DNA from: Gemmatimonadota bacterium
Lineage (GTDB): Bacteria; Gemmatimonadota; Gemmatimonadetes; JACCXV01; JAHWKZ01
Assembly: GCA_035698825.1 (NCBI GenBank)
Contig: DASSBK010000221.1
Location: 1-35,787 of the forward strand
Reading direction: 5' to 3'
DNA length: 35,787 nucleotides
The position numbers and the translations under genes were made by a program. Shown piece by piece: positions 11,158 through 35,787 of this stretch (the first letter of the stretch is position 1; every line of letters begins with the position of its first letter). The notes under the pieces are model-generated. The model did no database searches and was not told the DNA's origin. It saw nothing but the letters and a program-made list of their open reading frames with translations.

Positions 11158-11984
11158 GGCCACGGCTCCTGGTCCCGAGCGCGGCGCTCTGCGCGATTCT
11201 CGCGCACGCCGTTGCTGCCTCCGGCCAGGACGTGGCGGTTCCGGGTCCCGAGACCGAGATCGTCGATCTCACGTATTCCTTCGGGCAGTCCACCCTCTAC
11301 TGGCCCACCGCGGAGCCCTTCGTGCTGGAGGTCGTGAGCGAGGGCGAGACGGAGTCGGGGTGGTACGCGGCGAAGTCCTTCTGCGCGGCGGAGCACGGAG
11401 GCACCCACCTCGACGCGCCGATCCACTTCGCCGAGGGCGGGCGCACGTCGGCCGAGATCCCGCTCGAGGACCTGATCGGAGACGCGGTCGTGATCGACGT
11501 GAGCGCGGCCGCGGCCGCCGACCGGGATCTCGAGATCGGAGTGGACGCTCTCGAGGCCTGGGAGTCCATGAACGGGGCGATCCCTGCGCGCGCGATTGTC
11601 CTCCTGCGAACGGGATGGGGCGAGCGCTGGCCCGACGCGGAGCGCTACCTGGGGACCGCGGCGCGGGGTCAGGAGGCCGTGGCCGACCTCCATTTCCCGG
11701 GTCTCTCGGGGGAAGGCGCCGCCCTCCTCGTCGAGCGGGGGGTCCGGGCGGTGGGAATCGACACCGCCTCGATCGATCGCGGTCAGTCGACGGAGTTTCG
11801 CGCGCACCGCGTCCTCGCCGCCGCGAACGTGCCCATCTTCGAGAACGTGGCGAATCTCGACCGCGTGGTCCTGCGCGGCGCCACCGTCGTCGCCCTGCCG
11901 ATGAAGATCGAGGCCGGCACGGGCGGGCCGCTTCGGATCGTCGCGCTCCAGCCCCTCTTTCTCCCCGGCGCTCCCGGTGAGTGA
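11154..11984 (+). CDS. Cyclase-family (kynurenine formamidase-like) metal-dependent hydrolase, likely exported
   Basis: Motifs HGGTHLDAPIHF, LLRTGW, HFPG, VGIDTASID, ENVANL, GTGGPLR. GTGA overlap with the upstream gene and a signal-like N-terminus. Confidence 0.85.
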   Translation: MRPRLLVPSAALCAILAHAVAASGQDVAVPGPETEIVDLTYSFGQSTLYWPTAEPFVLEVVSEGETESGWYAAKSFCAAEHGGTHLDAPIHFAEGGRTSAEIPLEDLIGDAVVIDVSAAAAADRDLEIGVDALEAWESMNGAIPARAIVLLRTGWGERWPDAERYLGTAARGQEAVADLHFPGLSGEGAALLVERGVRAVGIDTASIDRGQSTEFRAHRVLAAANVPIFENVANLDRVVLRGATVVALPMKIEAGTGGPLRIVALQPLFLPGAPGE

Positions 11985-12228
11985 CTCCGGCGGCGTCGTC
12001 GAACGCCGCATGGCGGGGCTCACCGTCCGGATCGATCGCCTCCTCTGCGTGGGCTTCGGAGACTGTATCGACGAGGATCCCGAGTCCTTCGAGCTGGACG
12101 GCGAGGGCGTGGCGGCCTTCCGCGATGCGGGCGGGGTCGACCGCGAGCGGATCGTGCGCGCCTGCGCCGCATGCCCGGTGGACGCCCTCACCGTCCTCGA
12201 CGGGGATGGAAGGCAGCTGGCGCCGTGA
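11977..12228 (+). CDS. Single-cluster ferredoxin, probably [3Fe-4S]
   Basis: IDRLLCVGFGDC...P..F.L...CAACPVDAL; overlaps both neighbouring genes. Confidence 0.8.
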   Translation: MSDSGGVVERRMAGLTVRIDRLLCVGFGDCIDEDPESFELDGEGVAAFRDAGGVDRERIVRACAACPVDALTVLDGDGRQLAP

Positions 12229-13118
12229 GCGGAGGATCCGAGCGCCGCCGGATCCGGACCTACCACGAGGTCGCCGATCCCGGAGCCGAATCGGTCGTCG
12301 GCCAGGTGGTCGAACAGCGTCGGCGGCTCCGGGAGCGGCTGGCGGGAGTGGGCCGGCTGGTCGCGGTCGGGAGCGGAAAGGGGGGCGTCGGGAAGAGCGC
12401 GATCAGCGCGAACGTCGCCGCGGCGCTGGCCGCGAGCGGCCGGGCGGTCGGCGCCCTGGACGCCGACCTGGACGGACCGTCGCTGGCGCGGATGCTGGGC
12501 GCCCGGGGCGGTCTGGCGCGCGGCGACAGCGGATTCCGGCCGGCGAGGGGGGCGGCCGGCGTCGGCGTCGTGTCGATGGATCTCCTGGTCGCGGAGGGCG
12601 CCCCCGTTCGGTGGCGCGGACCGGAGGAGCACCGGTTCGCGTGGCAGAGCGTGATCGAGACGGGAGCGCTCCGCGAGTTCCTGTCCGACGTCGAGTGGGG
12701 CGCGCTCGACGTCCTCGTCCTGGACCTGCCGCCCGGCACGGAAAAGCTCGCGCGCCTGATCGATCTCGTGGGATCCCCCGACGCCGTCCTCATCGTGACG
12801 ACTCCGTCCGAGGCCGCCCGCCACGTCGTGGCGAAGAGCGCGCGATTCCTCGAGGACGCCGGAGTCCGGGAAGTGGGGCTGGTGGCGAACATGGCGACCT
12901 GGAGCTGCCCGCACTGCGGCGTGGCCGAGCCCCTCTTCGCCGCCGACGGCGCCCGCCGGCTGGCGCGGGATTCCGGCCTCGAGCTCTGGGCCGAGGTGCC
13001 GTTCGACCCCCGGATCGCGGCCGACACCGACGAAGGCATGCCGATCGTGCTGAGTGCGCCCGAGCGCCCGGCGGCGCGCTCGCTCGCGGCGCTCGCCGAG
13101 CGGGTGGCGGCGCCGTGA
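12225..13118 (+). CDS. Mrp/NBP35 (ApbC-like) P-loop ATPase, Fe-S cluster carrier
   Basis: Motifs SGKGGVGKS, DADLDGPS, WGALDVLVLDLPPGT, VTTP and NM..CPHC. GTGA overlap start. Confidence 0.87.
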   Translation: MSGGSERRRIRTYHEVADPGAESVVGQVVEQRRRLRERLAGVGRLVAVGSGKGGVGKSAISANVAAALAASGRAVGALDADLDGPSLARMLGARGGLARGDSGFRPARGAAGVGVVSMDLLVAEGAPVRWRGPEEHRFAWQSVIETGALREFLSDVEWGALDVLVLDLPPGTEKLARLIDLVGSPDAVLIVTTPSEAARHVVAKSARFLEDAGVREVGLVANMATWSCPHCGVAEPLFAADGARRLARDSGLELWAEVPFDPRIAADTDEGMPIVLSAPERPAARSLAALAERVAAP

Positions 13119-13564
13119 AATTTCTCTGCATCGGGTGCGACGCGGTGATGGATTACGTGGAGCGGCGGCTCCCCGGAGACGGGACGATGGCCGTCGTCTA
13201 CGCCTGTCCGGCCTGCGGCAAGGAGACCGCGATGCTCGCCAACCCGATGGAGACGCGCCTCGTCAGCGGCCTGGGGATCGAAGTGGGCGGCAGGAGCGTG
13301 CCGCCCGAGCCGCTCGAGCTCGTGCGGTCCTCCGTCGAGGGGCTCGAGGAGCGGGCCGAGGGAGTCGCCGAAGCGGCGCCTCCACGTCCGGGCGGGGTGC
13401 GCTGGAGCGAGGACGCGCGGGAGCGGCTCATGGCGGTGCCCTCGTTCGTCCGGGGGATGGTCAAGCGGATCTACGGCGAGTACGCGGCCGAGCGCGGCAT
13501 CGAGGAGATCACGCCGGAGATCATGGATCGCGCCCGCTCCGAGCTGGGACTGGAGGGGATGTAG
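13115..13564 (+). CDS. Zn-ribbon (CxxC...CxxC) protein with C-terminal PCP_red-like (BchB C-terminal-like) module
   Basis: VKFLCIGC...YACPAC, then VRWSEDARERLMAVPSFVRGMVKRIYGEYAAERGIEEITPEIMDRAR. GTGA overlap with mrp. Confidence 0.78.
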   Translation: MKFLCIGCDAVMDYVERRLPGDGTMAVVYACPACGKETAMLANPMETRLVSGLGIEVGGRSVPPEPLELVRSSVEGLEERAEGVAEAAPPRPGGVRWSEDARERLMAVPSFVRGMVKRIYGEYAAERGIEEITPEIMDRARSELGLEGM

Positions 13565-13582
13565 CGCGCGGGTGGAAGTCGT

Positions 13583-13611
13583 TTGACACGTTCCCCCACC
13601 GTTTTTATATA
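13583..13611 (+). promoter_or_regulatory. Possible sigma70-type promoter for the USP-to-cox transcription unit
   Basis: Perfect TTGACA at 13583-13588 and an AT-rich TTTATATA about 16-17 bp downstream in otherwise GC-rich DNA. The -10 element is imperfect. Confidence 0.45.
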
Positions 13612-13670
13612 GGGGCGTCGCACAGGCAGGAACCGCCCTTGCAGTCGATTTCCCTTCGAAATCGGGTGGC

Positions 13671-15764
13671 ATGTATCGAGAGATCCTCGTACCGGTGGAC
13701 AACTCCGAGCACTCCGACTGGGCCGTCGACCGCGCGATCGAGATCTGCCGCCGCTCGGGCGGCCGCGTCACCGGCAACCACGTCTACGCCGCCCGCCTCC
13801 ACGACGTCCGCTTCCGCCAGCTCGAGACCGGCCTCCCCGCACAGTTCCAGACCCCCGACGAGATCAAGCGCCAGCGGAAGATCCACGACAAGCTGATCGA
13901 GAAGGGCCTGCAGCTGATCTCCGACAGCTTCCTCGACCAGGTCGAGAAGCGCTGCGCGGCCGTGGGGGTGCCGGTGACGCGGCAACTCCTCGAGGGGATC
14001 AACTACGAGGAGCTGGTGCGCGAGGCGAACCGGGGCGAGGGCCGGCTTCCGAGCCTGATCGGCTTCGACCCCAACATCGCCGACAAGTACGACGGTGGCG
14101 CCACGGTGCGCGGCGACGTGCGCCTGGGGGAGGACGGCAGGATCATCGCCGAGGAAGAGGACGCCGACGAGAAGCTCGCGGGCAGCTCGGGCAGGAGCTA
14201 CGACCTGGTGGCGATCGGGGCGCACGGCCTCGGCAGGCAGCCCCTGAGCCAGCTGGGCGGGGTGGTGGCGCGCGCGATCCGAGGCATCGAGAAGGACGTC
14301 CTGATCGTGCGGGACGACCGCCCGCTCGAAGGCGGTCGCTTCCTCGTCTGCGTGGACGGCTCGGCCTACTGCTACAAGGCGATGCGCGTGGCGCTGGAGA
14401 TGGCGCGGGAATTCGGCGCGAAGCTCTACGTGGCGAGCGCGTTCGACGTCGAATACCACCACGTCGTCTTTCACAACATCAAGGACGTCCTCTCGGTCCA
14501 GGCCTCGAAGGTGTTCAAGTTCGAGGAGCAGGAGGAGCTCCACAACAACATCATCGACAAGGGCCTCCTGCGGCTCTGTCAGGCGAACCTCAAGCGCGCC
14601 GAGGTCATGGCCGCTGAGTATCCCGACATCGCGATCGAGACGCAGATCCTGATCGGCAAGCCGTTCCAGGTCGTCCTCCAGTGGGCGGAGGAGATCGAGC
14701 CCTCCCTGCTCGTGGTCGCGCGCCACGGGAGCCATCGCATCGACGGGACGGATCTGGGGTCCCAGGCGGACAACCTGAGCCGCATCGCGACGGTGAACAC
14801 GCTGCTGGTAGGCACCACCGCGGTCCATCCCGAGGAGATCCCGTGGATCGAGGAGGACGGCGAGACGGGCCTCGAGTGGTCGCCGGACGCCGAGGTCCGG
14901 ATCCTGCGGGTTCCGCCGTTCGCGCTCGGCATCGCGCGCAAGGCCGTCGAGGAGTACGTGCTGGAGCGGTACGGCGCCGCGGTCGGCGCTGGAGCCGGCG
15001 GGAACGGAAACGGCAACGGAACCGTGCCTGCCGACGGGAACGGGCACGCGCCGTCGAACGGGGACGGAAGACCGCGCGGCCTGCCGACCGTCACCGGCGA
15101 GCGGCTGGACGAGGCGATCCAGAAGCTCCTGCCGACCCACATGCAGCTCATCATGGGAATCGGCACGGCCGAGGAGCTCGCGCTGGCCGAGATCAAGGCC
15201 GAGGAGGCGATGAAGCGGACGCTCGTCGAGGGCAGCGACGTGGACGACGCTCCCGCGGTGCGCATGGTGACGGCGAAGTGTCCGTACACGGGGCACGTGC
15301 AGGAGCGGGAGTGGACGGAGAAGGACCCGGTCGTGTGGACGGGAGAAGCGTTCGAGCGACTGCGTCTGGTGCCGCTCATCGCGCGGCCGCTGGCCCGGAA
15401 CACGGTCGAGCGCTTCGCCCGCGATCACGCCATGTGGCGGATCACGACCCGGGTGATGGACGAGAACAAGCAGGCGATGATCGAGGCCGACGAGTTCGAC
15501 GTCGACACGATGCTGGTGATGTTCAAGGAGCTCCAGACCAAACAGCTCAGGGCCGCCGCGGAGGGCGTGGACGGACTGACGCCCGAGATGCGCCGATTCA
15601 TCGACGAGGCGAAGGCCGCCGGCGTCACTCGCTGCCCCATCCGGGACATCGAGAAGCAGATCGACAAGTGCCCGGTCGATTTCAAGGCCGCCACGCCCGC
15701 CGAGGCCAAGGCGGCCGTCGAGGCCTTCCTGAATTCCGCCGCAGCCGCGGAGGACGCCCCATAG
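13671..15764 (+). CDS. Tandem universal stress protein (USP) domain protein with two PCP_red-like modules and three Cys-Pro motifs
   Basis: USP motifs ILVPVDNSEHS...DLVAIGAHG...DVLIVR and FLVCVDGS...LLVVARHG...LGSQA. PCP_red-like LEWSPDAE..RVPPF and VVWTGEAFERLRLVP. Motifs KCPY, RCPI and KCPVDF. Confidence 0.8.
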   Translation: MYREILVPVDNSEHSDWAVDRAIEICRRSGGRVTGNHVYAARLHDVRFRQLETGLPAQFQTPDEIKRQRKIHDKLIEKGLQLISDSFLDQVEKRCAAVGVPVTRQLLEGINYEELVREANRGEGRLPSLIGFDPNIADKYDGGATVRGDVRLGEDGRIIAEEEDADEKLAGSSGRSYDLVAIGAHGLGRQPLSQLGGVVARAIRGIEKDVLIVRDDRPLEGGRFLVCVDGSAYCYKAMRVALEMAREFGAKLYVASAFDVEYHHVVFHNIKDVLSVQASKVFKFEEQEELHNNIIDKGLLRLCQANLKRAEVMAAEYPDIAIETQILIGKPFQVVLQWAEEIEPSLLVVARHGSHRIDGTDLGSQADNLSRIATVNTLLVGTTAVHPEEIPWIEEDGETGLEWSPDAEVRILRVPPFALGIARKAVEEYVLERYGAAVGAGAGGNGNGNGTVPADGNGHAPSNGDGRPRGLPTVTGERLDEAIQKLLPTHMQLIMGIGTAEELALAEIKAEEAMKRTLVEGSDVDDAPAVRMVTAKCPYTGHVQEREWTEKDPVVWTGEAFERLRLVPLIARPLARNTVERFARDHAMWRITTRVMDENKQAMIEADEFDVDTMLVMFKELQTKQLRAAAEGVDGLTPEMRRFIDEAKAAGVTRCPIRDIEKQIDKCPVDFKAATPAEAKAAVEAFLNSAAAAEDAP

Positions 15765-15765
15765 G

Positions 15766-17136
15766 GTGAGCGCGACACCGCCATTCGGGGCCGTGTCGGC
15801 GGATCGGGCCGCGCCGCGCAGGGACTGGGAAACGGACGTCGCGGTGCGCGCGGCGGGACCGGAGTTCGTGCCGCACGTCGTCGCCTGGAACCTGACCCGC
15901 CGCTGCAACCTCGAGTGCGCTCACTGCTACATCGCGGCGGGCGCCTGGCACGCCGCCGCGGAGGAGATGTCGACCGCGGACTGCCTGAGGGTCGTGGACG
16001 AGATCCTCGCGGTGAGCCCCGCCCCGATGCTGATCCTGAGCGGCGGTGAGCCCTTGCTTCGCGACGACCTGGAGACGATCGCCCGGCGGGCCGCCGACGG
16101 GGGCGCGACGGTGGTCGTGGGAACGAACGGCACGCGCCTCACGCCGGCCCGCATCGACTCGCTGAAGGCGGCGGGCGTCCGTGGCGTGGCGGTCTCGATC
16201 GACAGCCTCGACGGCGATTACCACGACCGCTTCCGCCACGGTGCCGGATCGCTGGACGAAACGCTGGCCGCGATCGAGCGGCTGCGCGAGGCGCGGCTCG
16301 ATTTCGTGGTCCAGACCACCGTGACGCGCGGCAACCGCCACGAGATCGCGCGCCTCGTGGCCTGGGCGGCGGAGAAGGGCGCGGTCTCGTTCAACTGCTA
16401 CTTCGTTGTGGCCACCGGTCGCGCGTCCGGGATGCGCGGGCTCTCGCCTCGCGAGAACGACGAGGTCCTGGCCGAGCTGGTGGCGCTGGGGAAGGCGTAT
16501 CGGGGCCGGATGATGGTGCGCTCGAAGTGCCAGCCCCAGATCATGCGCCACGCGTATGCCGGCGATCCGGAATCGGGACTCCTCGACTACGCCACGCGTT
16601 GCCCGTGCGGCGTTCAGTACTGCCGCATCACGCCCGACGGAAAGGTCACGCCCTGCCCCTACATGCCGGTCGAGGCCGGAGATCTGGCGAGCGCGAGCTT
16701 CGGAGAGATCTGGCGCGAGTCGCGGGTCTTCCGCGAGCTCCGCGCGACGGAGCTCGGCGGACGCTGCGGACGATGCGAGTTCCGGATCGTGTGCGGGGGC
16801 TGCCGGGCGCGCGCCTACGCGGAGGAGGGGGACTGGCTGGCGGAGGACCCCGCCTGCTCGTACGAGCCGACCGGACGGGTCCCGGTCGTGGAGCCGCGGC
16901 TCGTGGCCCATGGCGCGCCGGCGGAGCGGACGCTTGCGTGGAGCGCGGCGGCCCGGGAGCGGATGGGCCGCGTCCCCGGCTTCGTGCGCGCCGTCGTGAC
17001 CGCCCGCGTGGAGAAATACGCCGCGGAACGGGGATACCCAATCGTCACCGAAGACGTGATCGACGAGGTGCGCTCGGCGCTGCCGATCGACTTCGCCAAG
17101 AGGAAGCCGTTCTTCCTCGGGAAGGACCCGTCGTGA
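15766..17136 (+). CDS. Radical SAM/SPASM protein of the NirJ/AhbC/AhbD type with C-terminal PCP_red-like module
   Basis: VAWNLTRRCNLECAHCY, SGGEPLLRDD, GTNG, SIDS; SPASM CPCG..YC..PCP...CGRCEFRIVCGGCRARA...DPAC; tail LAWSAAARERMGRVPGFVR. Confidence 0.85.
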   Translation: MSATPPFGAVSADRAAPRRDWETDVAVRAAGPEFVPHVVAWNLTRRCNLECAHCYIAAGAWHAAAEEMSTADCLRVVDEILAVSPAPMLILSGGEPLLRDDLETIARRAADGGATVVVGTNGTRLTPARIDSLKAAGVRGVAVSIDSLDGDYHDRFRHGAGSLDETLAAIERLREARLDFVVQTTVTRGNRHEIARLVAWAAEKGAVSFNCYFVVATGRASGMRGLSPRENDEVLAELVALGKAYRGRMMVRSKCQPQIMRHAYAGDPESGLLDYATRCPCGVQYCRITPDGKVTPCPYMPVEAGDLASASFGEIWRESRVFRELRATELGGRCGRCEFRIVCGGCRARAYAEEGDWLAEDPACSYEPTGRVPVVEPRLVAHGAPAERTLAWSAAARERMGRVPGFVRAVVTARVEKYAAERGYPIVTEDVIDEVRSALPIDFAKRKPFFLGKDPS

Positions 17137-18887
17137 CCCGGCGCCGGCTCGGCACGGCCGCGACGTGCGTCGCGTCGCTGGCGCTGGTGCTCGTGGCGGT
17201 CCACGTGGCGGGCGCGCAGGAGCCGGCGGTCGTCGGGCCGCGCGAGTACGGCTCGTTCCCGTGGATCGGCAGCCGGACCGCCGTCTGGATCGCGGCCGAG
17301 GTGCATCTCATGTTCGCCGCCTTCGTCCTCGGCGTGCCGATTTTCGCGGTCGCGGCCGAAGGCATCGGGATCTTCGGCGGGGACGAGCGCTACGATCGCC
17401 TGTCCAAGGAGTTCACGCGGCTCCTCCTCATCGCTTACAGCGCAACCGCGATGTGGGGTGCCGTCCTGGTCTTCTTCCTGACCACGCTCTACCCGCGGTT
17501 CTGGGCCCACATGACGGAGATCTTCGAGGTCTCGATGTGGATCTACGTGGGTCTGTTCTTCGTCGAATCATTCACGCTCTATCTCTACTACTACGGCTGG
17601 GACCGCTGGAAGCACGGGCGCGCGAAGATCGGGCACTGGACGCTGGGGATCCTGCTCAACCTCTGGGGCACCGCGGTCCTGTTCATCGCCGACAGCTGGC
17701 TCACGTACATGATGAGCCCGCCGGCGACAGTCACGCCCGACACCTCGCCGGCCATGGTCCAGTTCTGGAGCGCCTTCGCCAACGCCACCTGGATGCCGAT
17801 CAACATCCATCGGCTGATCGCCAACGTGGTTTTCGGCGGCTCGGTGGTGGCGGCCTATGCCGGCTACCGCTTCCTCTCCTCGCGCACGGACGAGGAGCGC
17901 GCGCACTACGACTGGATGGGCTACGTCGGCAACCTGATCGCCATCGGCGCCCTGATCGTGCTGCCCTTCGCCGGCTACTACCTGGGCCGCGAGATCTACG
18001 AGTACAACCAGCAGATGGGCATCACGATGATGGGCGGCTTCATGTCCTGGCTGTGGATCATCCAGGCGTTCCTGATCGGGGTCCTGTTCCTGGCGGGCAA
18101 CTACTACCTCTGGGTGGGGATGGGACGGATTCCGGGAGCGGAGCGCTTCCTACCCTACACGAAATGGATGCTGCTGGTCCTGATCATCGGCGTGATCGTG
18201 TGGTCGACGCCGCACACGATGATCGCCGACAGGGCCGAGCTCGAGGCGATGGGCGGCTCTCACCATCCGTTCCTCGGCGTCCTGGGCGTCATGAGCGCCA
18301 AGAACACCGCCGTCAACCTCATGATCCTGACGACGTTCCTTTCGTTTCTGCTGTACCGCCGGGCGAACCGGCGACCGGTCGTGTCGTGGACGCGGACGGG
18401 AACGATCCTCCAGGCCGGGCTGTTCATGATCGCGGCCGCGGTGGTCCTCTTCTACGGAGTGTACGGCTACTTCGTGAGCGCGATCGTCCGGATCGGGTTC
18501 AGCGTGTATCAGGTGCTGGCGGTCCTGGCCACGATCGTGGGGGTGATGGCGATCGACGTGGCGATGCTGCGGGGGTCGGAATCGCGCGGTGCGATCCGCT
18601 GGGGCCAGATGCCGCCGCGCTCCCAGTACGCGCTGTTCGTCCTGGTCGTCACGTTCACCTGGCTCATGGGCCTGATGGGGTTCGCGCGGAGCGGCATCCG
18701 CCAGCACTGGCACGTGTGGGAGGTCATGCGGGACACGAGCGAATGGGCCGCGACTCCCGCGCTGGGATACGCGGCGCAGATCATCAGCGTCTGCGTCCTC
18801 ATCTTCCTGGGGCTGATCTCGTTCATCTTCTGGCTGGGCGGGCTGGTCGAGAAGCCCCAGCTCGTCCCCAAGTCCGGAGACCGCTGA
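17133..18887 (+). CDS. CydA-like ('cytochrome bd-like') multipass membrane protein
   Basis: CydA-type N-terminal half: VHLMFAAFVLG, ERYDRLSK, FFVES...YYYGWDR, GHW, YMMSP, IHRLIA. C-terminal MGFARSGIRQHW resembles CydA GRQPW. About 13 hydrophobic segments. Confidence 0.75.
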   Translation: MTRRRLGTAATCVASLALVLVAVHVAGAQEPAVVGPREYGSFPWIGSRTAVWIAAEVHLMFAAFVLGVPIFAVAAEGIGIFGGDERYDRLSKEFTRLLLIAYSATAMWGAVLVFFLTTLYPRFWAHMTEIFEVSMWIYVGLFFVESFTLYLYYYGWDRWKHGRAKIGHWTLGILLNLWGTAVLFIADSWLTYMMSPPATVTPDTSPAMVQFWSAFANATWMPINIHRLIANVVFGGSVVAAYAGYRFLSSRTDEERAHYDWMGYVGNLIAIGALIVLPFAGYYLGREIYEYNQQMGITMMGGFMSWLWIIQAFLIGVLFLAGNYYLWVGMGRIPGAERFLPYTKWMLLVLIIGVIVWSTPHTMIADRAELEAMGGSHHPFLGVLGVMSAKNTAVNLMILTTFLSFLLYRRANRRPVVSWTRTGTILQAGLFMIAAAVVLFYGVYGYFVSAIVRIGFSVYQVLAVLATIVGVMAIDVAMLRGSESRGAIRWGQMPPRSQYALFVLVVTFTWLMGLMGFARSGIRQHWHVWEVMRDTSEWAATPALGYAAQIISVCVLIFLGLISFIFWLGGLVEKPQLVPKSGDR

Positions 18888-19687
18888 TGTGGGGCACGAA
18901 CCTCCGGGTCCTCGCCGTCGTGCTGGGGACCGTCGCGGCTTACACGCTGCTGGCCAACGCGATCCCGCAGGTCGAGTCGGAGGTCCCCGAGGAGCTGACG
19001 TTCACCGGCGACGTGAGCCCCGAGCAGCTGATCGAGGCCGGGGAGGAGCTGTTCAACGGGGCCGGCGGATGCACGGCCTGCCACGGGCTCGGCACGCGGG
19101 CGCCGAACCTGCTGACCGATCAGGGCGGACTGGGCGCGATCGGCGCGCGCTGCGGACAACGCGTCGAGGGCGAGGACTGCAAGGCCTATCTGCACCAGTC
19201 GATGGTCGATCCGAACGCGTACGTGGTGGAGGGCTTCCAGCCGATCATGCCGGACATGTCGCGCACGCTGTCGGAAGCGCAGATCTGGTCGATGATCGCA
19301 TTTCTGCAGAGCCAGGGCGGGGAGGTAACCGTCACCGCCGCCGATCTGCAGGCGGCGGCCGAAACGGAGCCCGGCGCGGCGGCGGGGACGGCGGCCACGG
19401 CCGGTACCGGCCCCAGCGCGACCACCGACCCCGTGGCCCTCATCCAGGAGCTCCAGTGCCTCGCCTGCCACAAGCTGGGCGCGGAGGGGCAGGAGGTGGG
19501 GCCGCACTTCGACGGCATGGGCTCGCGTCTGTCGCCCGACGAGATCCGGCAGGCGATCCTCGATCCCGCGGCCTCGGTCTCGCCGGGCTTCGAGCAGTTC
19601 GCCGGGGTGATGCCGCCGAACTTCGGCTCGCGGCTGACGGCCTCGCAGCTCGAGGCGATCGTCGGCTTCCTGGCGGCGCGGAAGTGA
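18887..19687 (+). CDS. Membrane-anchored diheme c-type cytochrome
   Basis: N-terminal TM segment, CTACH and CLACH each followed by an MP motif (IMPD, VMPP). TGATG coupling. Confidence 0.88.
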   Translation: MWGTNLRVLAVVLGTVAAYTLLANAIPQVESEVPEELTFTGDVSPEQLIEAGEELFNGAGGCTACHGLGTRAPNLLTDQGGLGAIGARCGQRVEGEDCKAYLHQSMVDPNAYVVEGFQPIMPDMSRTLSEAQIWSMIAFLQSQGGEVTVTAADLQAAAETEPGAAAGTAATAGTGPSATTDPVALIQELQCLACHKLGAEGQEVGPHFDGMGSRLSPDEIRQAILDPAASVSPGFEQFAGVMPPNFGSRLTASQLEAIVGFLAARK

Positions 19688-19697
19688 GGCATACGCC

Positions 19698-20489
19698 GTG
19701 AGGCTCCTGCGCCATCCGTTCTGGCAGGCGGTCGCGATCCTGGTGATCGCCTACCTCCTGATCACCTACGGGATCCCGTACCTGCCCGCGCTGATTGGCA
19801 TGGAGAGCGCCCCGGTTCCCGGATCGGTCGTGCTGCAGTACATGGCGACCGTGCTGGTGGGGGTCCTGATCTGGGTCAGCGACAGCGACGAGCGGTGGAA
19901 CCGATTCCTGGAGCCGATCCGATCGACGATGGTCGACGGCAACAGGCGCTGGCTGCGGCTCGGGCTCATGGTCGCGATCCCGCTCCTGGTCGGGCTGCTC
20001 GCCTTCCGTCAGGTGCGGCAGACGGTCGCCGCACCGCCCGCCCTGCGCTCGATCCACCCCGCGCCCCCCTCGTCGATCACGTTCCGCGGTCGGCCGCTGA
20101 ACCTCGCGGGGCTCGACAACCCGCTCCGGGGGGACGGCTCGATCACGGAAGACTACGAGGAGGGCAAGCGGGTCTACTATCAGAATTGCCTCCCCTGCCA
20201 CGGCGATGGGCTCGACGGGCGCGGCCATTTCGCGCACGGCTTCACACCGGCCCCGCTGCCGTTCAACGACTCCGGCACGATCCCGCAGCTGACCGAGAGC
20301 TTCGTATTCTGGCGGATCGCCAAGGGCGGCCCGGGCCTCCCCAAGGAGGGAACGCCCTGGAACAGCGCGATGCCGGTCTGGGAGGAGATCCTCACCGAAG
20401 AGGAGATCTGGTCGGTCATCGTCTTCCTCTACGAGCAGACCGGCGCGACTCCCCGCACGTGGGCAGAGGCCGGGGAGGGGGCTGAATGA
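19698..20489 (+). CDS. Membrane-bound monoheme c-type cytochrome with three N-terminal TM helices
   Basis: Three hydrophobic segments, then YYQNCLPCHG and SAMPVW. Confidence 0.85.
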   Translation: MRLLRHPFWQAVAILVIAYLLITYGIPYLPALIGMESAPVPGSVVLQYMATVLVGVLIWVSDSDERWNRFLEPIRSTMVDGNRRWLRLGLMVAIPLLVGLLAFRQVRQTVAAPPALRSIHPAPPSSITFRGRPLNLAGLDNPLRGDGSITEDYEEGKRVYYQNCLPCHGDGLDGRGHFAHGFTPAPLPFNDSGTIPQLTESFVFWRIAKGGPGLPKEGTPWNSAMPVWEEILTEEEIWSVIVFLYEQTGATPRTWAEAGEGAE

Positions 20490-22129
20490 GGTTTCCGGCG
20501 CGCATGGCTTGGCCCCTGCTGGCGGCCCTCTTCGTGGCGCCCGCGTCCGTGACCGCGCAGGACTCCCAGACCGGGAAGGCGGAGTACGACCGGTGGTGTG
20601 CCGGCTGTCACGGCGTGGACGGCAAGGGGGATGGCCCGGGTGCCGGGACGATGATGCCGCGGCCGCGCGACTTCACGACCGGCCGCTACCAGATCCGCTC
20701 GACGCCGAGCGGCGCGCTCCCCACGGACGAGGACCTCACGAGTGTGATCCTGGACGGGATGCCCGGCACCGCGATGCCCGGATGGCGGGACCACTTCGGC
20801 GAGCGCGAGGTGCAGGAACTGGTCGCCCACATCAAGTCGTTCTCGCCGTTCTTCGAGAGCCAGCCGGCCCCCGAGCCGGTGGAGATCGTGTCGGCTCCCG
20901 GAGCGGACGATGCGGCGCTCGCGGAGGGTCGGGAGTTCTACGAGAAGATCGAGTGCAACAAGTGCCACGGCGAGGCGGGCAGAGGGGATGGTCCGTCGGC
21001 GCCCACGCTCGAGGACGACGACGACCGGCCGATACGCGCCGCCGATCTCACCGAGAACTGGTTCTTCAACGGCGGGGGGTCGGTGGAGGAGATCCACGAG
21101 CGTCTGGTCACGGGCCTCAACGGAACGCCGATGCCTTCGTTCCAGGACCTGATCGCCGCCGAGTTCATGACCGAGGAGCAGTTATGGCACGTGGCGCAGT
21201 ACGTCCGGAGCCTGGCGCCCGAGGAGCCCCCGGTCGTGCGGGAGGTCGTTCGCGCCGGGCGGGTGGAGGGCGATCTGCCGGCGTCGGTGGACGACGCCGC
21301 ATGGGAGACCGCCGAGCGCTTCTACGTGCCGCTCGTCGGACAGGTAATCGCCCGCCCGCGCTGGTTCTCGCCCACCGTGGACGGCGTATGGGTCCAGGCG
21401 CTTCACAACGGTCGAGAGCTGACGATGCGCCTCGTGTGGCACGACCCGTCGGAAAGCCCCGATCCGGACTGGGACGAGTGGCGGGACAAGGTGCTCGCGC
21501 TGATGGCGTTCGCCGACGCGCCGGTCGCGGAGTCGCCCGATTCGGCCGCCGCCGAGGCACCGGCGGAGTCCGCGCCGGGGGGCGGGGCCGATACGACGGC
21601 GGTCGCCGCCGCCTCGCCGGGGGCACCCTTCCCGGACGCGTTGGTGGTTCAGTTCCCGCGCTCCATCCCCGAGGGCATGGAGCGGCCCTATTTCCTCATG
21701 GGCGACGATCGCGATCCGGTGTATCTCTGGCGCTGGGAAAGCGGACGGCAGGCGAGCGAGATGCTGGCGCGCGGGCTGGCGAGGTACGAGCCTCTCGGCG
21801 GCGCCCAGGCCGGAGCCGTGACGGCCGAGGCCGTGTTCGACCAGGGCGAGTGGCGACTCATGCTGCGCCGGACGATGGACGCGGAAGGAGTCGCGGATCG
21901 CCTCGGCTTCGAGCCAGGGCGCGCGATCCCGATGGCGCTGTTCGCGTGGGACGGGTCCAACGGAGAGACGGGAACGCAAGGGGCGATCGGAAGCTGGTAT
22001 TTCCTGTACCTGGATCAGCCGACGGCGAGCACCGTGTACGTGACGCCGGTCCTGGCGACGCTGTTGACTGCGGCGCTGGGCGTGGTGTTGGTCAGGCGGG
22101 CGCAGCGGCGCGCGCGAAACGATGCGTAG
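20486..22129 (+). CDS. Diheme cytochrome c fused to an ethylbenzene-dehydrogenase-gamma (EbdC/DOMON)-like domain, with C-terminal membrane anchor
   Basis: Signal peptide; CAGCHG...PRPRDF...GMPGTAMP; CNKCHG...GTPMP; then VQALHNG..L.WHDP, DALVVQFP, PYFLMG, GEW...R, AWDG; C-terminal TM followed by RR. Confidence 0.82.
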   Translation: MRFPARMAWPLLAALFVAPASVTAQDSQTGKAEYDRWCAGCHGVDGKGDGPGAGTMMPRPRDFTTGRYQIRSTPSGALPTDEDLTSVILDGMPGTAMPGWRDHFGEREVQELVAHIKSFSPFFESQPAPEPVEIVSAPGADDAALAEGREFYEKIECNKCHGEAGRGDGPSAPTLEDDDDRPIRAADLTENWFFNGGGSVEEIHERLVTGLNGTPMPSFQDLIAAEFMTEEQLWHVAQYVRSLAPEEPPVVREVVRAGRVEGDLPASVDDAAWETAERFYVPLVGQVIARPRWFSPTVDGVWVQALHNGRELTMRLVWHDPSESPDPDWDEWRDKVLALMAFADAPVAESPDSAAAEAPAESAPGGGADTTAVAAASPGAPFPDALVVQFPRSIPEGMERPYFLMGDDRDPVYLWRWESGRQASEMLARGLARYEPLGGAQAGAVTAEAVFDQGEWRLMLRRTMDAEGVADRLGFEPGRAIPMALFAWDGSNGETGTQGAIGSWYFLYLDQPTASTVYVTPVLATLLTAALGVVLVRRAQRRARNDA

Positions 22130-23048: not shown

Positions 23049-23840
23049 ATGGACTGGGGCTGGTTGATGTCGGAGCCGGCTTCGACGTTCGGCTCCAAGA
23101 TCGACTCCATCTACTATGTGATCCTGGTGATCACAGGGGTGATCTTCGTGCTCGTGGAGGGCGCGCTGATCGTGTTCCTGTTGAAGTACCGGCACCGCGA
23201 GGGTCGGCGGGCGGAATACTCCCATGGACACACCAAGCTGGAGGCGGTGTGGACGATCATCCCCTTCATCCTCGTCATGGCGATCGCCTGGATGAGCATG
23301 GATGTGTGGCTCGAAGCGAAGATCGCGGATGGCCATGCGCCGGCGGACGCACTGCCGCTGCGCGTGACGGCGAAGCAGTTCGAGTGGAATGTCACCTATC
23401 CCGGGCCCGACGAGAAGCTCGACACCCCCGACGACTTCGTGAAGAGGAACCAGCTCCACCTTCCTGTGGGCAGGGCCGTGAGGGTCGACCTGGCCAGCGA
23501 GGACGTGATCCACTCGTTCTTCCTGCCTGTGTTCCGGGTGAAGCAGGACGCGGTACCCGGCATGGTGATTCCGGTGTGGTTCGAGGCGACGAAGGCGGGT
23601 GAGTACCCGCTGGGCTGCGCCGAGCTGTGCGGTCTCGGCCACTACCGGATGCGCGGCTCGGTCACCGTGCACGAGGCGGCGGCGTTCGACTCGTGGGTCG
23701 CTGAGGAGGGATCGGCGCCGGCCGCGGAGACGCCGGCGCCCGCGGACACCACCGGTGGCGGGGCCGAGGCAGCCGAAGCCGCCGCGGCCCCGGGCCACGA
23801 TCATCAGCAACCATCCAGCGAAGGAGAGGGGCGGGCATGA
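23049..23840 (+). CDS. coxB: Cytochrome c oxidase subunit II (CuA, no fused cytochrome c)
   Basis: Two TM helices, LEAVWTIIP, QFEW, DVIHSF and CAELCGLGHYRM. Confidence 0.93.
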   Translation: MDWGWLMSEPASTFGSKIDSIYYVILVITGVIFVLVEGALIVFLLKYRHREGRRAEYSHGHTKLEAVWTIIPFILVMAIAWMSMDVWLEAKIADGHAPADALPLRVTAKQFEWNVTYPGPDEKLDTPDDFVKRNQLHLPVGRAVRVDLASEDVIHSFFLPVFRVKQDAVPGMVIPVWFEATKAGEYPLGCAELCGLGHYRMRGSVTVHEAAAFDSWVAEEGSAPAAETPAPADTTGGGAEAAEAAAAPGHDHQQPSSEGEGRA

Positions 23841-25627: not shown

Positions 25628-26244
25628 GCCACGGCGCCGCGATCTCGGCCACGCACCCGATGGAGGGGATGAAGGTCTACAACCTCAAGCTCGGGATGTG
25701 GGTGTTCCTGCTGTCGGAGGTGATGTTCTTCTCGAGCCTGATCGGGGCCTACATCATCCTGCGGTTCGCGCACCCCGAGCAGTGGGCGGAGCCCAATGTG
25801 GTCCTCAACGTTCCGCTCACGGGTTTCAACACCTTCATGCTGATCTGCAGCTCGGTGACGATGGTCAAGGCCTTCGCCGCGATCGAGCACGGGGATCAGG
25901 CGGGCCTCAGGAAGTGGCTGATCGCGACGATCATCCTGGGCTCGGCGTTCGTCAGCATCCAGGTCTTCGAGTACATCAAGCTCGCCCACGAGGGGTTCGT
26001 TCCCGTCGCGGCGAGATATGCTGCCGAGGGAGGTCCGCTGTACGGTTCGACGTTCTACACCATGACGGGCTTCCACGGCGCCCACGTCACGATCGGGGTG
26101 CTGGCGCTGATCTTCACGACCATCAAGGCGTTCCGGGGGAAATACTCGGCGACGGACTACGGCGGAGTGGAGATCATGGGACTCTACTGGCACTTCGTGG
26201 ATCTGGTGTGGATCATTCTTTTCACAATCGTCTACCTGATTTGA
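25624..26244 (+). CDS. coxC: Cytochrome c oxidase subunit III (short form)
   Basis: GMWVFLLSEVMFF, TGFHGAHV, GLYWHFVDLVW; ATGA overlap with coxA. Confidence 0.93.
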   Translation: MSHGAAISATHPMEGMKVYNLKLGMWVFLLSEVMFFSSLIGAYIILRFAHPEQWAEPNVVLNVPLTGFNTFMLICSSVTMVKAFAAIEHGDQAGLRKWLIATIILGSAFVSIQVFEYIKLAHEGFVPVAARYAAEGGPLYGSTFYTMTGFHGAHVTIGVLALIFTTIKAFRGKYSATDYGGVEIMGLYWHFVDLVWIILFTIVYLI

Positions 26245-26248
26245 TCAG

Positions 26249-26368
26249 GGCGCGTGAAAACGGGCCATCTGCTGCGTTGCGCTCCTCGTGCCGGCCTGCG
26301 GCGTACACTCCGGTACGCCTCGGCCGTCCCTCGTCGCGCGCCTTGCATCTGACCCGTTTTGACGCGCC
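26249..26368. repeat. ~120-bp long-hairpin intergenic element, copy B
   Basis: Terminal inverted repeat GGCGCGTGAAAACGGG/CCCGTTTTGACGCGCC with 1 mismatch; homologous to 2742-2860. Confidence 0.85.
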
Positions 26369-26414
26369 TCCAGCAGCGTCAACCTCACATCGGTCCTGAG
26401 CGGGGAGGAGCTTG

Positions 26415-28034: not shown

Positions 28035-28043
28035 GATCTCCCG

Positions 28044-33682: not shown

Positions 33683-34918
33683 ATGAGCGGCGAACGAGTC
33701 TCGCTGGCCGGGGTCAGCCATCGAACGGCTCCGCTCGACCGGCGCGAGCGCTTCGCGCTCCAGCCGGACGCGGCCGCCCGCCTGCTCTCCGGGCTGGGTC
33801 CGGAGACGTTTCTGCTCGTCACCTGCAACCGCACGGAGCTCTACGGCTCCCGCACCGCCGAGGAGCTCGAGGCCGCGCTGCTCCATGCCGCGGGCGGGGG
33901 CGATCCCGGGGACCTCTACAGGAAGACGGGCAGGGAAGCCGTCGGTCACCTGTTCGCCGTTGCGGCGGGCCTCGATTCGATGGTCGTCGGCGAGCCTCAG
34001 ATCCTGGGTCAGGTCAAACGTGCCATGGGAGACGCCGAGGGAGCGGGTGCCCTGGGGCCGGTCCTCGGCGAGCTGGTCCGGCGTGCGATCTCGGTGGGGC
34101 GCCGCGCGCGTCGCGAGACGAACCTCGGCAGGGGCCTGCCGTCGATCCCCAAGGTGGCCACCGGGATGGTGCGGCTGGTCCTGGGAGACCTGGCGGACCG
34201 GACGCTCCTCGTCGTGGGCACCGGCAAGCTCGGCCAACAGGCCGCGGGCCTGCTGCGCCGGTCGGGAGCTTCGCGAGTGGTCGTCACGAACCGCAGCCCC
34301 GAGGCCGCGATGCGCCTCGCGGACGAGATCGGGGGACGGTCGGCCCCGTTCGCCGACCTGGACGCGCTGCTCGTCGAGGCCGACATCGTGATCACCTGCA
34401 CGGCGGCGGCCGCGCCGATCCTGACCCGCGATCGCCTCGCGGCCGCCATGACCGCCCGCCGCGACCGCAAGCTCGTTCTGATCGACATCGCCGTCCCCCG
34501 GGACGTCGAGCCCTCGGCGCGCTCGCTGCGCGGAGTGCGGCTCCACGACCTCGACGACCTGCGGGGCTGGGGATCGGCTTCCATCGCCCCCGAGACGATC
34601 GATCGCGCGCGGGCCATCGTGAACGAAGAGACGGCCGGCTTCCTCGGCTGGCAGGCGGCACGGTCGGCGGTGCCCACGATACGGGCGCTGCGCGAGCGCG
34701 CGGAGCGGATCCTGGAGGCGGAGGTGGGAAGCCGCGCGCCCGAGAAAGCGGAGGAGATGCGCGAGTTCGGCCGCCGGCTCCTCAACAAGATCCTCCACGA
34801 GCCGCTCGTTCATCTCCGCGACGGAGCCGCATCCGAAGGCGAGGCCTATCTCGCGGTGGCGCGCGATCTGTTCGGCCTCGAGGAGGGGGAGAACGGGGGC
34901 CCGCGGAGCGGGGAATGA
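33683..34918 (+). CDS. hemA: Glutamyl-tRNA reductase
   Basis: GVSHRTAP..RE, TCNRTELY, HLFAVAAGLDSMVVGEPQILGQVK, DIAVPRDVE, KILHEP. Confidence 0.95.
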   Translation: MSGERVSLAGVSHRTAPLDRRERFALQPDAAARLLSGLGPETFLLVTCNRTELYGSRTAEELEAALLHAAGGGDPGDLYRKTGREAVGHLFAVAAGLDSMVVGEPQILGQVKRAMGDAEGAGALGPVLGELVRRAISVGRRARRETNLGRGLPSIPKVATGMVRLVLGDLADRTLLVVGTGKLGQQAAGLLRRSGASRVVVTNRSPEAAMRLADEIGGRSAPFADLDALLVEADIVITCTAAAAPILTRDRLAAAMTARRDRKLVLIDIAVPRDVEPSARSLRGVRLHDLDDLRGWGSASIAPETIDRARAIVNEETAGFLGWQAARSAVPTIRALRERAERILEAEVGSRAPEKAEEMREFGRRLLNKILHEPLVHLRDGAASEGEAYLAVARDLFGLEEGENGGPRSGE

Positions 34919-35787
34919 CCCTGCCTGCGGTACGCATCGGAACGCGGGGGAGCGCGCTCGCCATGGCCCAGGTGTCGCTGGTCGCCGGCCGGGTGCGCGA
35001 GCTCGGCTTCGAGGTCGAGGTGGTGACGATCCGCACGCAGGGCGACCGCGCCCGATCGGAGGGATCGATGATGCTGGAGAGGGGGGCGTTCGTGAAGGAC
35101 CTCGAGACGGCGCTTCTTCGCGGCGATGTGGATCTCGCCGTCCACAGCGCCAAGGACCTGCCGGTCGCGATCGCCGGCGGCACGGAGCTCGCCGCGTTCC
35201 CGCCGCGGGGGGACGCACGGGACGCGCTCGTGAGCCGGGGGGACGTCCCGCTGTCAGGCCTCCCATCGGGAGCGCGCGTGGGAACGGAGAGCCCCCGCCG
35301 GCAGGCGTTCGTGCGGATGGAGCGCCCCGATCTCGTCGTCGAACCGGTTCGCGGCAACGTCGACACGCGCCTTTCACGGCTGGACGCCGGTGAGCGCGAC
35401 GCGCTCATCGTCGCCGCTGCGGGCCTGGTGCGTCTCGGGCTCGCCGGCCGGATCGCCGAGACCTTCGCGTCCGACAGGATGGTTCCGGCGGTGGGACAGG
35501 GGGCGCTCGCCGTGCAGGCTCGCCTGGATGACCCGTGGGGCGCGCACGCCCGCCGGATCGACGACCGCCCCACGCGGATGGCGGTGATGGCCGAGCGCGC
35601 GTTCCTCGCGGCGATGGGCGGGGGTTGCCGCGCGCCGTTCGCGGCGCACGCCCGGTGGTCCGAAGGCCGGCTGACGATCGATGCCGCCGCGCTGAGGCCG
35701 GACGGTGGCGCGATCCTGCGCGACCGGCTGACGGGGTCCGAGGAGGAGGCGGCAGCGCTCGGCGAGCGCGCCGCGGAGCTCCTCCTG
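34915..35787 (+). CDS. hemC: Hydroxymethylbilane synthase (porphobilinogen deaminase), 3'-truncated
   Basis: Translated by hand: MTLPAVRIGTRGSALAMAQ, TQGD, FVKDLE, AVHSAKDLP, RGNVDTRL, PAVGQGAL, AERAFL..MGGGC. ATGA overlap with hemA; runs off the window end. Confidence 0.95.
   Translation, partial: MTLPAVRIGTRGSALAMAQVSLVAGRVRELGFEVEVVTIRTQGDRARSEGSMMLERGAFVKDLETALLRGDVDLAVHSAKDLPVAIAGGTELAAFPPRGDARDALVSRGDVPLSGLPSGARVGTESPRRQAFVRMERPDLVVEPVRGNVDTRLSRLDAGERDALIVAAAGLVRLGLAGRIAETFASDRMVPAVGQGALAVQARLDDPWGAHARRIDDRPTRMAVMAERAFLAAMGGGCRAPFAAHARWSEGRLTIDAAALRPDGGAILRDRLTGSEEEAAALGERAAELLL

What the first reader, a model, noticed from the sequence alone, without database searches (positions are those of the whole stretch)
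13115..17136. One PCP_red-like module repeated four times across three consecutive, unrelated proteins
Seen: the pattern W-x-x-[DEA]-A-x-x-R-[LIM]-x-x-V-P-x-[FI]...E-x-[YF]...[IV]-T-x-x-x-x-D recurs at about 13397-13550 (Zn-ribbon protein), 14871-15125 and 15330-15470 (USP protein) and 16933-17073 (radical SAM enzyme). Known: this resembles the small helical C-terminal domain of dark-operative protochlorophyllide reductase subunit B (BchB/ChlB). No photosynthesis genes are in this window. Inference: the module acts as a shared docking or tetrapyrrole-handling tag that assembles these proteins into a cofactor-maturation complex.
Basis: partly seen in the sequence, partly recalled or inferred. 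Interest (0 to 1): 0.82.

Follow-up and report, generated by a model that had tools for sequence, protein, structure and literature searches.

The report
Shared PCP_red modules around haem synthase
Three neighbouring genes beside an unusual respiratory oxidase each carry a small helical module otherwise known from a chlorophyll enzyme; one gene resembles the oxygen-independent haem synthase, so the set probably helps make or fit haem, but what the module itself does is untested.

Summary
Pfam PF08369 (PCP_red) hits all three proteins. These four matches are the only ones in the 2.78 Mb genome.

The carriers are:
- a Zn-ribbon 'PCP reductase family protein';
- a tandem-USP protein with two modules;
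- an AhbD/NirJ2-like radical-SAM/SPASM enzyme.

They are translationally coupled to a ferredoxin, an Mrp/ApbC ATPase and a haem-c-free cytochrome bd-like oxidase with two cytochromes c and a periplasmic cytochrome b. hemA and hemC lie at the window's end.

The set is conserved across Gemmatimonadota. In 201 sampled genomes, 57 hold both the USP-PCP_red protein and the oxidase, 2 hold one and 142 hold neither. It tracks the coproporphyrin haem pathway: 53 of 58 carriers have ChdC, against 34 of 143 non-carriers.

The same three architectures, with up to six modules per protein, occur in proteins sources assign to Nitrospinota and Ca. Manganitrophus.

Best reading: an oxygen-independent haem b synthase set serving low-oxygen respiration, with PCP_red as a shared adaptor. 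Neither binding nor tetrapyrrole handling by the module is shown. I found no paper describing it.

The parts
11977..12228 (+). small single-cluster ferredoxin
   Evidence: PF13459 Fer4_15, E 1.3e-9. Present upstream of Mrp in most Gemmatimonadota loci.
12171..13118 (+). Mrp/ApbC-type P-loop iron-sulfur carrier ATPase (start codon uncertain)
   Evidence: PF10609, 217 bits. NF041136 MrpORP 195 bits and ApbC 157 bits, both below their cut-offs. Its stop overlaps the next start as GTGA.
13115..13564 (+). Zn-ribbon + PCP_red protein ('PCP reductase family protein')
   Evidence: PF08369, 55.9 bits. C5, C8, C31 and C34 are invariant in 70 sequences. AF2 model: N-terminal three-stranded ribbon, disordered linker at 67-93, C-terminal three helices with 10-residue block means of pLDDT 86-96. 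Name.
13403..13537 (+). PCP_red module 1
   Evidence: 57.8 bits, profile positions 1-45. Foldseek against 2KRU: TM 0.75, rmsd 1.3 A over 53 columns.
13583..13611 (+). promoter-like TTGACA-17 nt-TATATA in the 106-base gap before the USP gene
   Evidence: Read. Kept upstream of the USP gene in 8 of 79 loci, the closest relatives. Missed by the consensus scan, which requires T at position 6 of the second hexamer.
13671..15764 (+). tandem-USP protein with two PCP_red modules and a Cys-Pro-rich tail
   Evidence: PF00582 two stretches, E 2.8e-29; PF08369 two stretches. 70-94% identical across 80 loci.
14877..15125 (+). PCP_red module 2, split by a 36-residue Gly/Asn-rich insertion
   Evidence: First part 14877-14969 scores 25.4 bits over profile positions 1-31. 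Full alignment; my HMM spans 14862-15140. The insertion length varies between loci.
15336..15470 (+). PCP_red module 3
   Evidence: 36.2 bits, profile positions 1-45. In the AF2 model, the 10-residue blocks covering model residues 121-210 have mean pLDDT 82-97.
15279..15671 (+). three invariant Cys-Pro motifs of the USP protein (C537, C655, C667)
   Evidence: Each Cys is in 81 of 81 sequences. The following Pro is in 80-81 of 81.
15766..17136 (+). AhbD/NirJ2-like radical-SAM/SPASM enzyme with a C-terminal PCP_red
   Evidence: PF04055, PF13186, PF08369. TIGR04545 288 bits over positions 1-339 of 339; TIGR04055 288.6 bits; both cut-offs are 500. C47/C51/C54 and nine further Cys are invariant in 74 sequences.
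16939..17073 (+). PCP_red module 4
   Evidence: 51.4 bits, profile positions 1-45.
17133..18887 (+). cytochrome bd subunit-I-like membrane protein
   Evidence: PF01654, 71.6 bits. No CxxCH; about 12 hydrophobic segments by a crude count; start overlaps the radical-SAM stop as GTGA.
18887..22129 (+). dihaem cytochrome c, monohaem cytochrome c, and dihaem c fused to an EB_dh-type haem b domain
   Evidence: CxxCH counts 2, 1 and 2. PF13442, PF00034 and PF09459. TIGR03477 92 bits.
33683..35787 (+). hemA (glutamyl-tRNA reductase) and hemC (porphobilinogen deaminase, cut by the window end)
   Evidence: PF05201/PF01488/PF00745. PF01379/PF03900.

Best explanation
The three genes form a conserved accessory set built around an AhbD-like radical-SAM enzyme.

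Proposed mechanism, all inferred:
- The enzyme uses S-adenosylmethionine, its three iron-sulfur clusters and electrons from the ferredoxin encoded upstream. The Mrp/ApbC carrier loads the clusters.
- It decarboxylates coproheme, made by the organism's coproporphyrin-dependent pathway, to haem b without oxygen or peroxide.
- This keeps haem available for the co-transcribed bd-like oxidase and its cytochrome b and c partners when oxygen is scarce.
- PCP_red is a three-helix bundle that has become a shared adaptor. One copy sits on the enzyme, two on a tandem-USP protein (a likely nucleotide-sensing regulator) and one on a Zn-ribbon protein. In other phyla the Zn ribbon is replaced by rubredoxin-like domains fused into the USP protein.
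- The adaptor most likely brings these proteins together, or to a common partner. It probably does not bind the tetrapyrrole itself.

Shown here: the domain identities, their conservation, the gene coupling and the co-occurrence patterns. Inferred: the enzyme's substrate, the low-oxygen role and any binding by the module.
For: Domains.

AhbD likeness:
- Full-length match to TIGR04545 (1-339 of 339, 288 bits). Peptide-maturase models score at most about 122 bits.
- The radical-SAM CxxxCxxC and nine further Cys are invariant in 74 sequences.
- Sources name some of the close homologues listed (69-93% identical) 'heme b synthase' or 'AdoMet-dependent heme synthase'.

Substrate available: the genome has ChdC and ferrochelatase on contig C218. 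A 2026 review states that AhbD occurs in some coproporphyrin-pathway organisms lacking other AHB enzymes, as an oxygen-independent alternative to ChdC (PMC13564367, passages read).

Association with that pathway: 53 of 58 genomes with the USP-PCP_red gene have ChdC, against 34 of 143 without it.

Link to the oxidase:
- GTGA or 1-base junctions run from Mrp to the cytochromes, except for one 106-base gap.
- 57 genomes hold both genes, 1 holds only the USP gene, 1 only the oxidase gene and 142 neither, of 201.

Conservation:
- Four modules in 68 of 81 sources, with synteny.
- Each module type is 67-84% identical between genomes but 25-40% identical to the other types.

Same trio elsewhere:
- Of 147 of the 150 best PCP_red relatives, 35 carry Usp, 21 a rubredoxin-like domain and 8 Radical_SAM.
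- Sources assign them to Nitrospinota and Ca. Manganitrophus.
- In 37 of 47 metagenome loci with room, the radical-SAM gene directly follows the USP gene.

hemA and hemC are in the window.
Against: - The AhbD and NirJ2 models are matched at 288 bits against equivalog cut-offs of 500, so orthology to characterised AhbD is not established.
- ChdC is present, so the enzyme is not needed for haem b as such.
- 5 of 58 carrier genomes show no ChdC.
- Only 8 of 80 metagenome loci have a bd-like gene within the fetched flanks.
- The modules have no conserved His, Cys, Met or Tyr; the invariant residues are W, A, R and P.
- The PF08369 stretch of BchB (473-521 of 525) is not the helix said to touch the pigment (398-420).
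- The sampled genomes are relatives of one another, so the co-occurrence counts overstate independence.
- No expression data were obtained.
Confidence: 0.45

Rival explanations
1. The radical-SAM enzyme does not make ordinary haem b. It performs a different side-chain reaction that yields a modified haem or other tetrapyrrole needed specifically by the bd-like oxidase. The PCP_red proteins hold or pass on that product.
For: It scores equally on NirJ2 and AhbD (288.6 and 288 bits) and well below both cut-offs. It co-occurs almost one-to-one with the bd-like oxidase. ChdC already covers haem b. The hemes of this oxidase family appear uncharacterised: papers call the enzymes experimentally unconfirmed (PMC10839748, passages read).
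Against: No neighbouring gene suggests further tetrapyrrole chemistry. The association with ChdC fits coproheme as substrate equally well. In most metagenome loci no oxidase gene is nearby.
Confidence: 0.15
2. The set is mainly regulatory. The USP protein senses nucleotides or energy state under oxygen limitation and controls the oxidase operon or the enzyme. PCP_red is a generic helical interaction domain with no link to tetrapyrroles.
For: Tandem Usp domains are the best-conserved part: 70-94% identity within the phylum and 29-40% to the long forms assigned to other phyla over query residues 1-433. In Nitrospira marina, UspA proteins next to induced operons rose most at low oxygen (PMC8115632, passages read); whether those carry PCP_red is not known. 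A promoter-like site sits just upstream of the USP gene.
Against: It does not explain why the same module sits on a tetrapyrrole-type radical-SAM enzyme and in BchB. It also does not explain arrays of up to six modules without any sensor domain.
Confidence: 0.2
3. The radical-SAM/SPASM enzyme modifies proteins. PCP_red is its recognition element, or the module arrays are its substrates, as in peptide-maturase systems.
For: A SPASM domain is present. Repeated modules with invariant W, R and P occur in proteins that have no other domain. The enzyme carries the same module as its neighbours.
Against: Peptide-maturase models score at most about 122 bits, against 288 for the tetrapyrrole enzymes. 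BchB carries the module without any radical-SAM partner.
Confidence: 0.1
4. The recurrence is chance or low-complexity similarity.
For: None found.
Against: Three of the four matches pass Pfam's cut-off on their own, and the genome has no others. There were 0 motif matches in 200 shuffles. The module is conserved in 80 other loci.
Confidence: 0.01

Closest known systems
PCP_red (PF08369): the C-terminal three-helix bundle of BchB/ChlB of dark-operative protochlorophyllide reductase, and the stand-alone forms solved by NMR (2KRU, 2L09)
   Same: A sequence profile of the window's modules hits 2KRU (E 5.2e-11), ChlB 2XDQ (1.3e-10), 2L09 (2.9e-10) and BchB 3AEK residues 473-521. The modelled module superposes on 2KRU (TM 0.75, rmsd 1.3 A), on 2L09, and on ChlB 2YNM_D (rmsd 1.6 A over 48 columns).
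   Different: There is no nitrogenase-like domain and no other DPOR-type match in the genome. Here the module is attached to a Zn ribbon, to USP and to a radical-SAM enzyme, and is multiplied. I found no function on record for the stand-alone forms (recalled; only their titles were seen).
AhbD, the radical-SAM/SPASM haem b synthase (coproheme to haem b)
   Same: Full-length alignment to TIGR04545, a radical-SAM motif plus nine invariant Cys for auxiliary clusters, and occurrence in a genome with the coproporphyrin pathway, as described for AhbD in PMC13564367.
   Different: The score is 288 against a cut-off of 500. It carries an extra C-terminal PCP_red, which the 339-position AhbD model does not cover. 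It sits in an oxidase operon with module-bearing partners.
bd-like oxidase gene clusters of Nitrospirota ('TO_1'; OR-N family)
   Same: The gene content matches: a bd-like protein, two cytochromes c and a periplasmic cytochrome b, as TO_1 is described in 10.1101/2021.11.15.468770 (passages read). There is no CxxCH in the bd-like protein, unlike OR-C (10.1101/2021.01.16.426971).
   Different: Subfamily placement was not tested, and the papers' supplements were closed. The passages returned by my term searches in those papers do not mention USP, radical-SAM or PCP_red neighbours.
Mrp/NBP35/ApbC iron-sulfur carrier ATPases
   Same: PF10609, 217 bits, with a CxxC at residue 246.
   Different: It scores below the MrpORP and ApbC cut-offs. 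Here it is conserved directly upstream of a Zn-ribbon-PCP_red gene, also in loci L109, L145 and L148.

Membership tests
PF08369 PCP_red | Profile score at or above the 32.5-bit gathering cut-off | tested here: met
   Protein scores are 55.9, 54.6 and 46.1 bits. Single modules score 57.8, 51.4 and 36.2 bits. The split module scores 25.4 bits for its first 31 positions only.
PF08369 PCP_red | Three-helix fold like the solved PCP_red domains | tested here: met
   Tested for the Zn-ribbon protein's module only: 2KRU TM 0.75, rmsd 1.3 A; 2YNM_D rmsd 1.6 A. The other three modules were not superposed.
BchB/ChlB (DPOR subunit B) | Nitrogenase-like catalytic domains N-terminal to PCP_red | tested here: not met
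   None of the three proteins has an Oxidored_nitro match. NCBIfam BchB models match only their last ~50-75 positions, at 26-45 bits against cut-offs of 490-912.
AhbD haem b synthase (TIGR04545) | Radical-SAM CxxxCxxC plus a SPASM domain with Cys for auxiliary clusters | tested here: met
   PF04055 and PF13186. C47, C51, C54, C255, C279, C281, C297, C334, C337, C343, C346 and C364 are in 74 of 74 sequences.
AhbD haem b synthase (TIGR04545) | Score at or above the equivalog cut-off (500 bits) | tested here: not met
   288 bits, with NirJ2 TIGR04055 at 288.6 bits.
AhbD haem b synthase (TIGR04545) | Converts coproheme to haem b | not testable with these tools
   Indirect only: ChdC and ferrochelatase are in the genome, and 53 of 58 carriers have ChdC.
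Universal stress protein (PF00582) | Usp domain match | tested here: met
   Two stretches, E 2.8e-29, 102.9 bits. Nucleotide binding was not tested.
OR-N / TO_1 bd-like oxidase | CydA-like protein without haem c motifs, next to two cytochromes c and a periplasmic cytochrome b | tested here: met
   PF01654 71.6 bits. No CxxCH in it; 2, 1 and 2 CxxCH in the next three genes. EB_dh domain.
OR-N / TO_1 bd-like oxidase | Phylogenetic placement in an OR-N subfamily and lack of the quinol site | not tested
   No reference sequences or supplements were on hand.
Haem-regulatory (Cys-Pro) motifs | Cys-Pro dipeptide that binds haem | tested here: inconclusive
   Three invariant Cys-Pro pairs are present. 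They may instead be remnants of rubredoxin-type knuckles seen in the forms from other phyla. The motif definition is recalled, not taken from any call.

The most novel reading that the evidence does not exclude
PCP_red is a portable hand-off module for haem-type tetrapyrroles. On this reading, the AhbD-like enzyme, the USP protein, the Zn-ribbon or rubredoxin proteins and the pure module arrays (up to six modules per protein, ten per locus) form a dedicated haem b synthesis and insertion machine. The machine would serve the uncharacterised bd-like terminal oxidases of Gemmatimonadota, Nitrospirota and Nitrospinota. The arrays would act as multivalent carriers or docking rails.
Probability: 0.2. 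Interest if true: 0.75.

Novelty: new variant of a known kind. Interest (0 to 1): 0.55.

Why it matters
The bd-like oxidases of nitrite and manganese oxidisers and of soil Gemmatimonadota are thought to be their main oxygen reductases, yet nobody has confirmed their subunits or cofactors. A conserved cytoplasmic gene set that travels with them offers a handle on how they are supplied with haem at low oxygen. That set is an AhbD-like enzyme plus partners sharing one adaptor module.

It would also give a first functional context to PCP_red outside chlorophyll synthesis. There the domain is annotated only by name.

If the ordinary reading holds, the practical gain is better annotation. These 'radical SAM protein', 'universal stress protein' and 'PCP reductase family protein' genes belong together.

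Tried and rejected
Complex prediction of the radical-SAM protein (alignment A3, 59 rows) with the C-terminal 303 residues of the USP protein (A4, 57 rows) gave 'no answer': ipSAE 0.00 in both runs, and the controls were not run. This counts neither for nor against binding.

Literature on the BchB C-terminus:
- 10.1101/2025.02.17.634645 and PMC13474568 gave nothing on residues 473-521.
- PMC4071322 mentions only the 'C-terminal helix' that covers the cavity.

The ABC transporter that lies between the Zn-ribbon and USP genes in many other loci looked like a possible haem exporter. It is generic: DrrA-type, with CcmA at 107 bits against a cut-off of 131.6. I dropped the idea.

The CopD-like membrane protein after the pair in L118 and L109 was not pursued.

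The consensus promoter and terminator scan found no promoter. It found 6 terminator-like sites against 4.2 expected, which is uninformative.

Sequencing runs: 20 of 22 listed runs hold part of the stretch. They are labelled soil and rhizosphere metagenomes, and one is on record as RNA with 0.10 of the words.

Literature searches for a prior description:
- 'PCP_red', 'PF08369', 'PCP reductase family': 9 papers, none on this topic by title and abstract start.
- bd-like, universal stress protein, radical SAM and taxa.
- AhbD, heme b synthase and taxa: none of the 15 listed papers contains 'AhbD'.

Supplements were closed. The OR-N tables of Murali et al. and Data Sets 1-3 of the N. marina proteome may bear on subfamily placement, and on whether a USP-PCP_red homologue is induced at low oxygen.
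Full report
WHAT IS THERE. The window is about 70% G+C. Its closest relatives are MAGs titled Gemmatimonadota and Longimicrobiales. Between 11977 and 25627 all genes read on the + strand. In order they are:
- a small ferredoxin, an Mrp/ApbC ATPase, a 149-residue Zn-ribbon protein, a 697-residue tandem-USP protein and a 456-residue radical-SAM/SPASM enzyme;
- a cytochrome bd subunit-I-like membrane protein, a dihaem cytochrome c, a monohaem cytochrome c, and a dihaem c fused to an EB_dh-type haem b domain;
- a CarboxypepD_reg protein, then COX2 and COX1.

Starts and stops overlap or lie one base apart at Mrp/Zn-ribbon (GTGA), USP/radical-SAM, radical-SAM/bd-like (GTGA) and bd-like/cytochrome c. 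The one gap is 106 bases before the USP gene. It holds TTGACA, 17 bases, then TATATA. Further on lie COX subunit IV, a second COX operon on the - strand, a TPR protein, hemA and hemC.

THE OBSERVATION. It is correct.
- PF08369 passes its cut-off in all three proteins.
- The second module scores low on its own because a 36-residue Gly/Asn-rich insertion splits it. The halves align on either side of the insertion.
- A profile of these modules finds the solved PCP_red domains 2KRU and 2L09 and the last ~50 residues of BchB/ChlB.
- The modelled Zn-ribbon protein has a confident C-terminal three-helix bundle that superposes on 2KRU at 1.3 A.

CONSERVATION.
- The USP protein is 70-94% identical in the 80 best genome loci.
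- Gene order from ferredoxin to COX1 is kept.
- My module HMM finds four modules in 68 of 81 sources, three in 9 and two in 4. The short counts come mostly from loci that end near the cluster; I did not check each one.
- Each module type is conserved between genomes at 67-84% but is only 25-40% identical to the other types. The four are therefore old, specialised copies.
- Many loci carry an ABC transporter and a small membrane protein between the Zn-ribbon and USP genes. The window lacks these.

BEYOND THE PHYLUM.
- The module profile finds 1733 cluster representatives at E<=0.001 among 1.84 billion proteins.
- Among 147 of the 150 best, 35 carry Usp, 21 a rubredoxin-like domain, 8 Radical_SAM and 7 SPASM. 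Single proteins carry other domains.
- Proteins hold up to six modules.
- Named members are annotated as from Nitrospinota and Ca. Manganitrophus.
- In those long USP forms, rubredoxin-type CxxC...CPxC units sit between the modules. That is a fusion of what the window encodes as a separate Zn-ribbon protein.
- In 80 metagenome loci found with these long forms, there are one to ten modules per locus.
- In 37 of the 47 loci with room, the radical-SAM gene directly follows the USP gene.
- Among the ten exceptions, two have the radical-SAM gene directly upstream and six have bd-like genes downstream.
- Mrp is seen in 9 of the 80 loci and a bd-like gene in 8.

WHAT THE ENZYME IS.
- It aligns end to end with the haem b synthase model AhbD and with NirJ2, at 288 bits each against cut-offs of 500. 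Peptide maturases score at most about 122 bits.
- All cluster-binding cysteines are invariant.
- Some sources already name close homologues 'heme b synthase' or 'AdoMet-dependent heme synthase'.
- The genome has ChdC and ferrochelatase, so it makes coproheme.
- A 2026 review says AhbD occurs in some coproporphyrin-pathway organisms as the oxygen-independent alternative to ChdC.

CO-OCCURRENCE. In 201 sampled genomes of the phylum:
- the USP-PCP_red protein is in 58 and the bd-like protein in 58;
- 57 have both, one has only the USP gene (G180), one has only the bd-like gene (G120, where the gene lies at a contig start), and 142 have neither;
- ChdC is in 87, comprising 53 of the 58 carriers and 34 of the 143 others;
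- in many genomes ChdC lies 10-13 kb from the cluster on the same contig.

These genomes are relatives of one another, so the counts are not independent events. Three are unpublished (G182, G097, G157). Figures without them are given under Tried and rejected.

WHAT THE MODULE DOES. This remains open.
- It has no conserved residue that could ligate iron.
- In BchB it is the terminal bundle (473-521), not the helix at 398-420 that reaches the pigment in trans. The link to tetrapyrroles is therefore by association, not by a known contact.
- Its spread over an enzyme, a sensor-like protein and small metal-ribbon proteins, and its multiplication in arrays, fit an adaptor better than a catalytic part.
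- That the bundle fastens one half of DPOR to the other is my recollection, not a result here.

VERDICT. It is one instance of a widespread, undescribed gene set.

The most likely function is fairly ordinary: oxygen-independent haem b synthesis tied to low-oxygen respiration. The adaptor role of PCP_red is the new and untested part.

I rate it a new variant of a known kind, interest 0.55.

Noticed in passing
window 15279-15281, 15633-15635, 15669-15671: Three Cys residues of the USP protein (C537, C655, C667) are in 81 of 81 sequences, each followed by Pro (80-81 of 81), in the contexts KCPYTGH, RCPIRD and CPVDF. H542 is in 72 of 81. They could be haem-regulatory-type motifs, a Cys3His metal site, or remnants of the rubredoxin knuckles seen in the forms from other phyla. 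The tail holding two of them is modelled with low confidence.
   Followed up: partly
window 13583-13611: In a 70% G+C genome, the only sizeable gap in the operon holds a perfect TTGACA, 17 bases, then TATATA. The same element is found upstream of the USP gene in 8 of 79 loci, the nearest relatives. This suggests the USP-to-oxidase genes have their own promoter.
   Followed up: partly
window 14970-15080: The insertion inside PCP_red module 2 is Gly/Asn-rich. Its length varies widely between genomes: the module spans 186 to 462 bases across loci.
   Followed up: partly
window 13544-13564: The Zn-ribbon protein always ends in ELGLEGM or a near variant (L144, G145, E147 and M149 invariant in 60 sequences). 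Its first five residues, MKFLC, are also invariant.
   Followed up: no
L012 7553-9621 and most other Gemmatimonadota loci: A small membrane protein and a DrrA-type ABC ATPase plus permease lie between the Zn-ribbon and USP genes. The window and its nearest relatives lack them.
   Followed up: partly
L118 13586-14098; L109 12092-12538: A 150-170-residue CopD/DUF4149-like membrane protein directly follows the USP/radical-SAM pair in these metagenome loci. In L109 a HlyD plus MacB-type ABC set follows.
   Followed up: no
L109 17075-19667 (- strand): Mrp, then a 230-residue protein with two PCP_red modules (a tblastn match to the window's Zn-ribbon protein, query residues 1-145, overlaps this gene), then a 320-residue protein made of four PCP_red modules and nothing else.
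   Followed up: partly
window 27714-32196 (- strand) and 23049-26708 (+ strand): Two separate haem-copper oxidase operons (COX2, COX1, COX3 or unassigned, COX4) flank each other. One COX2 is fused to a cytochrome c.
   Followed up: no
several genomes, e.g. G062:C54, G073:C73, G046:C4: ChdC lies about 10-13 kb from the USP/bd-like cluster on the same contig. In the window's own genome it is on another contig, C218, close to ferrochelatase.
   Followed up: partly
one of proteins P0001-P0147 (not identified individually; tally): A single PCP_red protein carries a haem-oxygenase-like domain: Haem_oxygenas_2 at E 3.1e-31. One member also matches TENA/THI-4/PQQC; whether it is the same protein was not checked.
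   Followed up: no
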